Positions 46,159-46,263 of a stretch of 64,000 nt of DNA are shown in pieces. The position numbers and the translations under genes are program-made. The notes under the pieces are model-generated. The model was not told the origin of the DNA. It did no database searches and saw nothing but the letters and a program-made list of their open reading frames with translations. This DNA is from Minisyncoccota bacterium (lineage in GTDB: Bacteria; Patescibacteriota; Minisyncoccia; UBA6257; 02-FULL-45-10c), in assembly GCA_028716745.1 (NCBI GenBank), contig JAQUPE010000001.1, forward strand, positions 30,203-94,202, written 5' to 3'. The stretch's first letter is position 1. Each line of letters starts with the position of its first letter.

Positions 46159-46263
46159 AAGGTGTTTTCACCTCCCGTGTATGAAGTTGTAAAGCTTCGA
46201 TGAATATAAAATAATACAAATAAGGCGTTTTGTCAATAAAAGCCCCCTAAGCGGGGGATTTTA

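What the first reader, a model, noticed from the sequence alone, without database searches (positions are those of the whole stretch)
46159..46262. Paralogous promoter + ~45-nt 5' leader cassette shared by two unrelated minus-strand genes (upstream of 45625..46158 and of 53083..53520)
Read on the minus strand, the region before the DUF218-like gene is TTGACAAAACGCC..TATTAT..CATCGAAGCTTTACAACTTCATACACGGGAGGTGAAAACACC-ATG. The region before the 145-aa gene at 53520 (plus-strand coordinates 53521-53612) is TTGACAAAATGGC..TATTAT..CATCGAAATATTTACAACTTAATACACCAAGGGGGTGAAAAACCT-ATG. Blocks TTGACAAAA, GTATTAT, CATCGA, TTTACAACTT-ATACAC and GG-GGTGAAAA are conserved (~70% over ~90 nt), although the downstream proteins are unrelated. 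Both genes sit in higher-G+C islets. A conserved leader suggests a shared cis-regulatory RNA element (thermosensor, small riboswitch or sRNA target) or a common mobile promoter cassette delivering foreign genes.
Basis: seen in the sequence. Interest (0 to 1): 0.5.

Follow-up and report, generated by a model that had tools for sequence, protein, structure and literature searches.

The report
Duplicated 5' leader before two genes
Two unrelated accessory genes in an uncultured Pacebacteria (CPR) genome share a truly homologous ~47-nt mRNA leader, but the promoter and ribosome-binding blocks around it are generic to this lineage and the leader shows no conserved RNA structure, so it is most likely an ordinary copied untranslated region, not a riboswitch or a mobile cassette.

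Summary
The sequence observation is correct. The minus-strand regions upstream of 45625-46158 and 53083-53520 align over 88 columns at 75% identity (BLASTN E=4e-6 within the window). They are the second most similar of 3081 upstream-region pairs.

The similarity has two layers.

1. The -35, spacer, -10 and +1 'CA' blocks and the GGRGGTGA ribosome-binding site are generic. Four other window promoters and three in a relative align in the same register. A profile built without the two copies still finds both. In the spacer, the two copies are no closer to each other (10/22) than to other promoters (up to 16/22).

2. Only the transcribed leader, from +1 to ATG (40/50 columns; core CATCGAA-N3/4-TTTACAACTTNATACAC), is specific to this pair.

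The leader has no shared secondary structure (RNAalifold -1.2 kcal/mol) and no Rfam match. I found no further copy in the window or in the viral, plasmid, phage, genome or metagenome collections, though the loose metagenome scan was truncated. It is not recognisably kept upstream of the orthologous genes in the only syntenic relative.

Best reading: an intragenomic copy or gene conversion of a plain, G-poor, unstructured 5' UTR. A shared operator or RNA-binding site is not excluded. Interest is low to moderate.

The parts
46159..46202 (-). Copy 1 leader (inferred +1 region to the base before ATG): CATCGAAGCTTTACAACTTCATACACGGGAGGTGAAAACACCTT
   Evidence: It matches copy 2 in 40 of 50 aligned columns (z=14.4 against shuffles). 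The transcription start is inferred from the promoter alignment, not measured.
46177..46193 (-). Copy 1 leader core TTTACAACTTCATACAC (contains no G)
   Evidence: exact pattern match, found at only two sites in the window.
46169..46175 (-). Copy 1 Shine-Dalgarno GGAGGTG. In this copy only, it can pair with CACCTT just before the ATG.
   Evidence: The hairpin GAGGUG-AAAA-CACCUU is part of the -9.6 kcal/mol minimum-free-energy fold of the 46-nt leader. It is not conserved in copy 2.
46203..46236 (-). Copy 1 sigma-70-type promoter: TTGACA (46236-46231), 17-nt spacer, TATTTT (46213-46208), 5-nt discriminator
   Evidence: It belongs to the generic promoter family: a profile built without it finds it at E=3.6e-3. 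It is closest to the promoter at 5140 (26/34) and to L179c (24/34), not to copy 2 (21/34).
46243..46258 (-). Terminator-like hairpin of the upstream GDSL-lipase gene, directly abutting the copy 1 promoter
45625..46158 (-). 177-aa weakly DUF218-like gene (PHN74_00465), GC3 0.56. Apparently monocistronic, with a terminator-like hairpin at 45616-45599.
53521..53565 (-). Copy 2 leader: CATCGAAATATTTACAACTTAATACACCAAGGGGGTGAAAAACCT
53539..53555 (-). Copy 2 leader core TTTACAACTTAATACAC
53529..53535 (-). Copy 2 Shine-Dalgarno GGGGGTG
53566..53599 (-). Copy 2 sigma-70-type promoter: TTGACA (53599-53594), 17-nt spacer, TATTAT (53576-53571), 5-nt discriminator
   Evidence: It is the best hit of the family profile (E=3.9e-5). 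It is closest to the orthologous promoter L179a (26/34; 48 nt at 75%, E=5e-4) and to the neighbouring promoter at 53015 (25/34).
53083..53520 (-). 145-aa all-helical protein of unknown function (PHN74_00505), GC3 0.60. A 33%-identical orthologue sits at the syntenic position in L179.
52987..53015 (-). Another promoter of the same generic family (TTGACAAAACAGCC...CAAAAT) before the 233-aa gene. It has a different leader.
5140..5168 (+). Another family promoter (TTGACTAAAAGCCTTATTTTAGGTATTTT) before gene 5270-5995. It is closest to the copy 1 promoter and lacks the leader core.
   Evidence: (41 nt, 78%, E=6e-4).
20488..20516 (+). Another family promoter (TTGACAAAATAGCAAATTTCTGCTATAAT) before a KhpA-like KH-domain gene
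62116..62153 (+). Probable further family promoter before gene 62193-62606
   Evidence: E=0.01.

Best explanation
The two upstream regions combine a lineage-generic expression module with one pair-specific piece.

The generic part is the sigma-70-type promoter and the Shine-Dalgarno site:
- The promoter has TTGACAAAA, a GC dinucleotide, ATTT, a TG-containing -10 region and CA at the inferred +1.
- The Shine-Dalgarno site is the canonical GGRGGTGA.
- A set of atypical genes in this Pacebacteria genome and in a relative carry these features.

The pair-specific part is the ~45-nt transcribed leader (+1 to ATG, 80% identical), which is truly homologous between the two loci.

Most likely one locus's 5' UTR was copied onto the other by a short duplication or gene-conversion tract. 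I infer that this happened after the lineage split from the nearest available relative, and that each gene kept its own promoter.

The leader is G-poor, CA/U-rich and predicted to be unstructured. I infer that it simply gives the ribosome an open landing site next to a strong Shine-Dalgarno sequence, so that two monocistronic accessory genes are expressed constitutively. I do not think it senses anything.

Shown here: the homology, its extent, the generic nature of the promoter, the lack of shared structure, and the synteny.
Inferred: the transcription start, the copy or conversion event and its timing, and the plain leader function.
For: The similarity is real:
- BLASTN E=4e-6.
- Rank 2 of 3081 upstream-region pairs, score 58 against 17.0 +/- 3.65.
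- Leader 40/50 columns, z=14.4; core without the Shine-Dalgarno site 23/28, z=9.0, 0 of 1000 shuffles.

The promoter half is generic:
- Five window promoters align without gaps from the -35 to CA(+1).
- Spacer plus discriminator identity is 10/22 for c1-c2, against 15/22 for c1-c3 and 16/22 for c2-p53015.
- A profile of six other promoters finds c2 (E=3.9e-5) and c1 (E=3.6e-3).
- GGRGGTG before a start codon recurs at 44400, 44529, 44616 and 44881.

There is no RNA element:
- The two minimum-free-energy folds differ. c2 has z=+0.07 (47-nt leader) and +0.51 (63 nt with the start of the CDS).
- The consensus fold is -1.2 kcal/mol with 3 pairs.
- No Rfam family comes near its threshold.

The genes keep separate ancestral promoters:
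- L179 shows the synteny Germane | 140 aa - hrcA - grpE - dnaK - x - dnaJ - GDSL - DUF218-like.
- The c2 promoter plus the first 14 nt of its leader match L179a (48 nt, 75%, E=5e-4).
- The leader queries find nothing in the relatives.
- L179a lacks the 11-nt CAACTTAATAC core.

No other copies were found.
Against: - The leader core (23/28) is better conserved than the promoter spacer and discriminator (10/22). The homology starts at the inferred +1. Both facts would also fit an old whole-cassette duplication with purifying selection on the leader, which would mean a function beyond a passive UTR.
- Only one syntenic relative exists, and it is distant (focal proteins 33-42% identical). Timing and direction of the copy event are therefore weakly constrained. 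The c1 core against L179b gives 18/28, p=0.026.
- The rest of the genome (the NCBI contig is 146 kb; only 64 kb were seen) could hold more copies.
- No transcript data exist, so the transcription start and the promoters are inferred.
Confidence: 0.6

Rival explanations
1. The leader core (+8 to +27, TTTACAACTTNATACAC, possibly with CATCGAA at +1) is a shared cis-regulatory site. It would be a DNA operator for a repressor sitting just downstream of the promoter, or a single-stranded RNA site for an RNA-binding protein or sRNA. Either would co-regulate the two accessory genes that flank the heat-shock operon.
For: - The leader core (23/28) is more conserved than the promoter spacer and discriminator (10/22).
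- The homology begins at the inferred +1 and ends at the ATG.
- The core is predicted to be unpaired in c2; in c1 its 3' part (CUUC) forms a non-conserved 4-bp stem.
- TACA recurs 9 nt apart within the core (read from the sequence).
- A partly shared distant inverted repeat, TGTATTA / T[A/C]ATACA, brackets the start site.
- Both gene families sit at the borders of the hrcA-dnaK block in two genomes.
Against: - There are only two copies.
- Neither copy has a palindrome or a clear dyad in the core.
- A 1-nt indel separates CATCGAA from the core.
- The core is not detectable upstream of the orthologues in L179.
- No antisense partner exists in the window (searched both strands).
- No candidate regulator was identified.
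Confidence: 0.2
2. A whole promoter-plus-leader cassette (~85 nt) was duplicated or mobilised as one unit, in the sense of a 'putative mobile promoter'. It was placed in front of two horizontally acquired genes, and the promoter spacer has since diverged.
For: - One BLASTN alignment spans the -35 to the ATG (88 columns).
- Both genes have high GC3 and strong Shine-Dalgarno sites, unlike most genes in the window.
- Wider relatives L181 and L182 lack both genes at these positions.
Against: - The promoter halves are closer to other promoters than to each other.
- The c2 promoter is closest to the promoter of its orthologue in L179 (26/34; 48 nt at 75%, E=5e-4).
- Both genes were already at these positions before the window and L179 lineages split.
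- No copies were found in the viral, plasmid, phage, genome or metagenome collections.
- There are no terminal repeats or transposase nearby.
Confidence: 0.12
3. The leader is a small structured RNA switch, such as an RNA thermometer or riboswitch that sequesters the Shine-Dalgarno sequence. This would fit the neighbouring heat-shock operon.
For: - In copy 1 the Shine-Dalgarno site can pair with CACCUU just before the AUG. The 46-nt leader folds at -9.6 kcal/mol, z=-2.46.
- The loci flank hrcA-grpE-dnaK-dnaJ.
Against: - Copy 2 has no equivalent hairpin (MFE -4.4 kcal/mol, z=+0.07, centroid unfolded).
- The consensus structure is -1.2 kcal/mol with 3 pairs.
- The conserved core is unpaired or only in a non-conserved 4-bp stem.
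- At ~45 nt the leader is too short for known riboswitch aptamers.
- There is no Rfam hit.
- The heat-shock operon has its own CIRCE/HrcA control at 52174-52200.
Confidence: 0.03
4. The similarity is chance resemblance between AT-rich upstream regions that share generic promoter and Shine-Dalgarno signals.
For: - Much of the 88-column alignment consists of generic signals.
- 2% of random 26-mers from the window find a match as good as the leader-leader score somewhere in the window.
Against: - The leader match lies in the same register relative to +1 and the ATG in both copies.
- Core z=9.0, with 0 of 1000 shuffles reaching the score.
- 0 of 20000 shuffles reach the observed leader score.
- No other promoter-family member shares the leader.
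Confidence: 0.03

Closest known systems
Putative mobile promoters / promoter propagation (Matus-Garcia, Nijveen and van Passel 2012, PMC3488235)
   Same: Homologous upstream sequence in front of non-homologous coding sequences within one genome. It is a two-member family, which was the commonest family size in that survey (68%).
   Different: - That survey compared the 100-nt fragment starting 50 nt upstream of the start codon and required at least 50 nt at 80% identity or more. Here the specific homology lies in -1 to -47, and the full alignment is 75% over 88 columns.
- The promoter proper is not the homologous part; the 5' UTR is.
- Nothing here indicates mobility.
Generic sigma-70 (housekeeping) promoter plus canonical Shine-Dalgarno site
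   Same: - TTGACA, a 17-nt spacer, a TAtnaT -10 and CA at +1.
- GGAGGTGA is complementary to the canonical 16S rRNA 3' tail (textbook knowledge).
   Different: This lineage adds a conserved spacer pattern (AAA after the -35, GC, then ATTT). That pattern is shared with relatives, and I know of no description of it.
RNA thermometers (ROSE, fourU and similar) and small riboswitches
   Same: Position in a short 5' UTR next to the Shine-Dalgarno site, and the neighbourhood of heat-shock genes.
   Different: There is no conserved hairpin, the Shine-Dalgarno site is not sequestered in copy 2, and there is no Rfam match.
Unstructured A/U- and CA-rich translational enhancer leaders (for example the TMV omega leader or ribosomal protein S1-binding leaders). 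This comparison is recalled from memory and was not tested.
   Same: The core is G-free and CA/U-rich, is mostly single-stranded in the predicted folds, and lies directly upstream of the Shine-Dalgarno site.
   Different: There is no sequence homology and no experimental evidence. Whether this organism uses S1-dependent standby binding is unknown.

Membership tests
Putative mobile promoter (PMP; PMC3488235) | Homologous upstream regions before non-homologous downstream coding sequences, with upstream coding sequences that are also non-homologous | tested here: met
   The downstream proteins are unrelated. The upstream neighbours are a GDSL lipase on one side and a divergent Germane-domain gene on the other.
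Putative mobile promoter (PMP; PMC3488235) | BLAST alignment of at least 50 nt at 80% identity or more, within the 100-nt fragment that starts 50 nt upstream of the start codon | tested here: not met
   The full alignment is 88 columns at 75%. The only stretch reaching 80% (40/50 columns) is the leader at -1 to -47, which lies outside the fragment that pipeline compares.
Putative mobile promoter (PMP; PMC3488235) | Evidence of propagation: more copies within the genome or in other genomes | tested here: not met
   There are two copies in the 64-kb window. No copies turned up in the genome, metagenome, viral, plasmid or phage collections.
RNA thermometer or riboswitch | Conserved secondary structure that sequesters the Shine-Dalgarno site or start codon, or forms an aptamer | tested here: not met
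   The Shine-Dalgarno hairpin occurs only in copy 1. The consensus fold is -1.2 kcal/mol with 3 pairs.
RNA thermometer or riboswitch | Match to a curated RNA family | tested here: not met
   The best hits score at most 22.8 bits against gathering scores of 34.8 bits or more. The two copies share only one weak family among their hits (ctRNA_pT181, about 18 bits, E about 5-6).
Lineage-generic sigma-70-type promoter family (defined here) | Ungapped fit to TTGACAAAA, GC, ATTT, a -10 and CA(+1), detected by a profile built from other promoters | tested here: met
   c2 at E=3.9e-5 and c1 at E=3.6e-3, using a profile of six promoters that excludes both.
Transcription-factor operator | Dyad or direct-repeat symmetry, recurrence upstream of several genes, and conservation in orthologous promoters | tested here: inconclusive
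   No palindrome lies in the core. There is only a weak TACA-N5-TACA direct repeat. There are two copies only. The core is not detectable in L179, but that relative is very distant.
DUF218 (PF02698), for the 177-aa gene | Pfam score at or above the gathering threshold | tested here: not met
   20.9 bits against a cut-off of 27.6, E=3.5e-4. 'DUF218-like' is therefore only a weak label.

The most novel reading that the evidence does not exclude
The G-free leader core TTTACAACTTNATACAC, which starts a few bases after the transcription start, is a previously undescribed cis-regulatory site in a CPR bacterium. It would be an operator, or a single-stranded RNA site for a protein or sRNA. It would tie together the expression of two accessory gene families that sit at the two borders of the hrcA-dnaK heat-shock block in at least two genomes. 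Purifying selection would then explain why the leader stays 80% identical while the promoter spacers have drifted to background similarity.
Probability: 0.15. Interest if true: 0.5.

Novelty: new member of a known kind. Interest (0 to 1): 0.25.

Why it matters
Taken alone, this is a small case of regulatory-sequence reuse: a 5' UTR shared by two unrelated genes. It shows that untranslated leaders, not just promoters, can be exchanged between loci in a reduced CPR genome.

The context it exposed may be more useful. This genome appears to run two translation-initiation regimes:
- most genes have no Shine-Dalgarno site, or are leaderless;
- about a fifth, mostly hypothetical genes with high GC3, carry canonical strong Shine-Dalgarno sites behind a stereotyped promoter with a conserved spacer.

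That bears on how Parcubacteria, some of which are reported to lack the anti-Shine-Dalgarno motif (PMC9297842), express accessory or acquired genes. None of this changes current understanding unless the leader core proves to be a regulatory site.

Tried and rejected
- Strict leader pattern CATCGAAN{2,5}TTTACAACTTNATACAC: 0 hits in genome contigs and in metagenome contigs. This also means the window's own genome is not in those collections.
All lie in unrelated contexts, mostly coding.
- BLASTN of the cassette against plasmids and phages: only short chance matches.
- Homologues of the DUF218-like gene at about 50% identity (L003, L006, L007): their upstream regions lack the leader.
- HrcA-based search of GTDB species representatives: only a 32%-identical relative.
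- Viral relatives of either protein: none.
- PHROGs and NCBIfam scans of the focal and neighbouring proteins: nothing useful.
- AlphaFold2 single-sequence model of the 145-aa protein (pLDDT 71, all helical) and Foldseek against the PDB: no significant fold match.
- Concerted evolution of the two leaders in both genomes (CATCGA/CATCGA in the window against CAGCTC/CAGATC in L179). Rejected because CAG at +1 is generic and the L179a-L179b upstream similarity is unremarkable (rank 12 of 190).
- Orthologous conservation of the leader in L179 (z=6.6 with the Shine-Dalgarno site included). Downgraded because, without the generic Shine-Dalgarno region, c1-L179b is only 18/28 (p=0.026) and c2-L179b is not significant.
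- A small upstream ORF in the leader. Rejected because there is no start codon, and a 1-nt indel breaks any common reading frame.

Full report
**Source and setting**

The window comes from a metagenome-assembled Candidatus Pacebacteria (Parcubacteria/CPR) genome. The two focal proteins carry NCBI locus tags PHN74_00465 and PHN74_00505, on a 146-kb contig.

Read on the minus strand, the local gene order is:
- a Germane-domain gene (divergent)
- | copy 2 (c2) - 145-aa gene - 233-aa gene
- hrcA, preceded by a CIRCE element at 52174-52200
- grpE - dnaK - 353-aa gene - dnaJ - GDSL lipase
- | copy 1 (c1) - 177-aa DUF218-like gene
- then a convergent 213-aa zinc-ribbon gene, tiny ORFs, a tRNA and corA

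. The two copies therefore flank the heat-shock block, 7.36 kb apart and in the same orientation.

**1. The observation**

The quoted sequences are there.
- BLASTN aligns 88 columns at 75% identity, E=4e-6 against the whole window.
- Among all 3081 pairs of 100-nt upstream regions in the window, the pair scores 58 against a mean of 17.0 (sd 3.65). It ranks second. The only higher pair looks like the 3' ends of two paralogous genes.
- The 17-mer TTTACAACTTNATACAC occurs exactly only at these two sites.
- The two proteins are unrelated.
- Both genes have elevated GC and GC3: 0.49/0.56 and 0.45/0.60, against window means of 0.396/0.393.

One correction: in c1 the TATTAT block is 14 nt from the -35, and the hexamer at the canonical 17-nt spacing is TATTTT.

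**2. The similarity has two layers**

*The promoter half is generic.*
- Five window promoters align without gaps: c1 (46236-), c2 (53599-), 5140+, 53015- and 20488+. The shared pattern is TTGACAAAA, two variable bases, GC, ATTT, a -10 hexamer, 5 nt, then CA.
- In the positions that are not hexamers (17-nt spacer plus 5-nt discriminator), c1 and c2 share only 10/22. c1 shares 15/22 with the 5140 promoter. c2 shares 16/22 with its neighbour at 53015.
- A profile HMM built from six promoters that exclude c1 and c2 (three from the window, three from a relative) finds c2 as its best window hit (E=3.9e-5) and c1 at E=3.6e-3. It also finds a further candidate at 62116.
- The Shine-Dalgarno block GGRGGTGA is equally generic. 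It precedes start codons at 44400, 44529, 44616 and 44881. It is the complement of the canonical 16S rRNA 3' tail (textbook knowledge).

*The leader is specific to the pair.*
- From the inferred +1 (CATCGAA) to the ATG, the two copies share 40 of 50 aligned columns (z=14.4).
- Without the Shine-Dalgarno region the core shares 23 of 28 (z=9.0; 0 of 1000 shuffles reach it).
- No other promoter-family member has this leader.
- On its own the 26-nt leader match is not extreme. About 2% of random window 26-mers find an equally good partner somewhere in 128 kb. Here, however, the partner lies in the same register relative to the promoter and the start codon, so chance is very unlikely.

**3. What the leader is not**

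- The two leaders fold differently. c1 forms two small hairpins, one pairing the Shine-Dalgarno site with CACCUU (-9.6 kcal/mol, z=-2.46). c2 has essentially no structure (-4.4 kcal/mol, z=+0.07, centroid open).
- RNAalifold finds a 3-pair consensus of -1.2 kcal/mol.
- The conserved core contains no G. It is unpaired, or sits only in a 4-bp stem that is not conserved.
- Rfam gives nothing near threshold for either region, and the two copies share no family above noise.
- Neither core contains a palindrome. The only partly shared symmetry is a distant inverted repeat, TGTATTA in the -10 region and T[A/C]ATACA in the leader, 25 or 27 nt apart.
- The leader is not coding. It has no start codon, and a 1-nt indel separates CATCGAA from the core.

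**4. Relatives**

*Searches that found nothing.*
- The strict leader pattern has no match in 185,579 species-representative genomes or in the JGI metagenome collection.
- The loose 17-mer gives only unrelated, mostly coding, matches in viral and metagenome contigs. The metagenome scan was truncated at 120 rows.
- Plasmid and phage collections give only short chance matches.

*The one syntenic relative.*
- The 145-aa protein has no close homologues. An exhaustive HMMER search found a 140-aa relative, P0011 (E=8e-10).
- Its contig is GCA_028715395.1, from the same sample, with DnaK 81% identical. It is fully syntenic: Germane | 140 aa - hrcA - grpE - dnaK - x - dnaJ - GDSL - DUF218-like (196 aa, 42% identical) - a second DUF218-like paralogue - convergent zinc-ribbon gene - corA.
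- Both focal genes were therefore already at these positions before the two lineages split.

*Wider relatives.*
- Two relatives with DnaK 82% identical (L181, L182) have the bare backbone SecDF | hrcA ... GDSL - corA - cysS, with neither gene.
- The focal genes are thus accessory insertions at the two borders of a conserved block. They are old insertions, not recent ones.

*Upstream regions in the syntenic relative.*
- The 140-aa orthologue keeps a c2-like promoter plus the first 14 nt of the leader (48 nt ungapped, 75%, E=5e-4). It lacks the 11-nt CAACTTAATAC core.
- The DUF218-like orthologue's leader resembles c1 only weakly once the Shine-Dalgarno region is removed (18/28, p=0.026).
- The c1 promoter resembles the promoter of the second DUF218-like paralogue (24/34, and the same odd 14-nt register to TATTAT).
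- The leader-only queries hit nothing in any relative.
- Within-genome identity of the two leaders (80%) therefore greatly exceeds any between-genome identity.

**5. Mechanism**

*Best reading (about 0.6).* Each gene kept its own member of a generic promoter family. The 5' UTR of one locus was copied onto the other by a short duplication or gene-conversion tract after the split from the L179 lineage. The leader acts as a plain, open, G-poor landing site next to a strong Shine-Dalgarno site.
- Shown: the homology, its extent, the generic promoter, the lack of shared structure, and the synteny.
- Inferred: the transcription start, the event, its timing and direction, and the passive function.

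*Main rival (about 0.2).* The core is a real regulatory site, either an operator at +8 to +27 or a single-stranded RNA site.
- In its favour, the leader is better conserved than the spacer, and the homology starts at +1.
- Against it are the copy number of two, the lack of symmetry, the internal indel, and the absence from orthologous leaders. The only relative is very distant, so that last test is weak.

*Lesser rivals.*
- A whole-cassette 'mobile promoter' (about 0.12). It is disfavoured because the promoter halves are not each other's closest relatives and nothing indicates mobility.
- A thermometer or riboswitch (about 0.03).
- Pure chance (about 0.03).

**6. Comparison with known systems**

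The closest described concept is promoter propagation, or 'putative mobile promoters' (PMC3488235): homologous upstream sequence before non-homologous genes, most often as two-member families.
- This case meets the qualitative definition.
- It does not meet the operational threshold of at least 50 nt at 80% identity within the fragment starting 50 nt upstream of the start codon.
- The homologous piece here is the UTR and not the promoter.

It works like any sigma-70 promoter plus Shine-Dalgarno module. It is not a member of any Rfam family.

**7. Verdict**

The feature is real but ordinary. The 'cassette' is mostly generic signals, and the structured-RNA and foreign-gene-delivery readings are not supported. 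Interest is 0.25, and the category is a new member of a known kind.

The most interesting by-product is the two-regime pattern of translation signals. Fourteen of 73 genes carry strong Shine-Dalgarno sites, with mean GC3 of 0.516 against 0.363 for the rest (Mann-Whitney p=6e-7). This is notable in a Parcubacteria genome, because an anti-Shine-Dalgarno motif is reportedly missing from about half of Parcubacteria 16S rRNA genes (PMC9297842).

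Noticed in passing
whole window; strong-SD genes start at 1556, 5270, 14646, 15399, 24166, 33035, 37981, 38419, 44892, 45625-46158(-), 52254-52955(-), 53083-53520(-), 54685, 62193: The genes fall into two classes. 59 of 73 have no Shine-Dalgarno site (A/T-rich upstream or apparently leaderless) and mean GC3 of 0.363. 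14 of 73 have a strong GGAGG-type site and mean GC3 of 0.516 (Mann-Whitney p=6e-7). Several of these have TTGAC(A/T) promoters with long leaders, and most of those scanned have no Pfam domain. This could reflect horizontal origin or a distinct expression regime. It is relevant to reports that many Parcubacteria lack the anti-Shine-Dalgarno motif (PMC9297842).
   Followed up: partly
window 10990, 12482, 30204 (TGGTAGAAT or TGTTATTAT 7-10 nt before the ATG); 12003 and 25633 (TTTGATAAAATAAA-CAATG): Many core genes have an extended -10-like box only 6-10 nt upstream of the start codon, often directly after the previous gene's terminator hairpin. This suggests widespread leaderless mRNAs.
   Followed up: no
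window 44412-44507(+) and 44633-44686(+), just after the tRNA at 44272-44342: Two tiny ORFs with perfect Shine-Dalgarno sites encode similar peptides: MNKGRSFASDESGCCGHGG... (31 aa) and MKKSRGYHDDGGGCCGP (17 aa). Both share a basic N-terminus and a GCCG motif. They are followed by a 213-aa zinc-ribbon protein that is conserved (51% over the C-terminal half) at the same place in L179. They could be small Cys-rich peptides or precursors.
   Followed up: no
window ~720-812 and ~4350-4441 (+): A ~100-nt repeat of about 84% identity lies just upstream of genes 833-1408 and 4450-5100. It is probably the paralogous C-terminal ends of ORFs 108-812 and 2684-4441. It is the highest-scoring upstream-region pair in the window.
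   Followed up: no
window 5140, 20488, 46236(-), 53015(-), 53599(-), 62116; L179 9934, 17186 and upstream of 2463(-): The promoter spacers follow a conserved pattern: TTGACAAAA, two variable bases, GC, two variable bases, ATTT, then a -10 region often preceded by TG, then CA(G) at +1. The pattern is shared between genomes whose focal proteins are only 33-42% identical. This implies constraint on the spacer itself.
   Followed up: partly
L179 16478-16520 (upstream of the DUF218-like orthologue): A perfect 14-nt palindrome, CCGAAAGCTTTCGG, lies immediately after a TTGACA box. It pushes the nearest plausible -10 out of register and may be an operator in the relative. c1 has only AAGCTT at a different position.
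   Followed up: no
window 5190-5250 (+): The long leader of gene 5270-5995 contains GAAAATTTTACAAAAGAGGAGGTGGATTG. This is a second strong Shine-Dalgarno site followed by an 8-codon TTG-initiated mini-ORF (MLGAAREI*) before the real ribosome-binding site. It could be a leader peptide or a decayed start.
   Followed up: no
window 38419-39522 (+): An aspartate-semialdehyde dehydrogenase gene has GC of 54% and GC3 of 0.66, the strongest compositional outlier in the window. It is probably horizontally acquired.
   Followed up: no
window 47976-49037(-); L179 13722-14753; L180 3483-4511; L181 12033-12992; L182 11882-12859: A ~320-350-aa protein with no Pfam, NCBIfam or PHROG hit sits between dnaK and dnaJ in all five genomes examined. 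It is an uncharacterised, conserved member of the CPR heat-shock operon.
   Followed up: no
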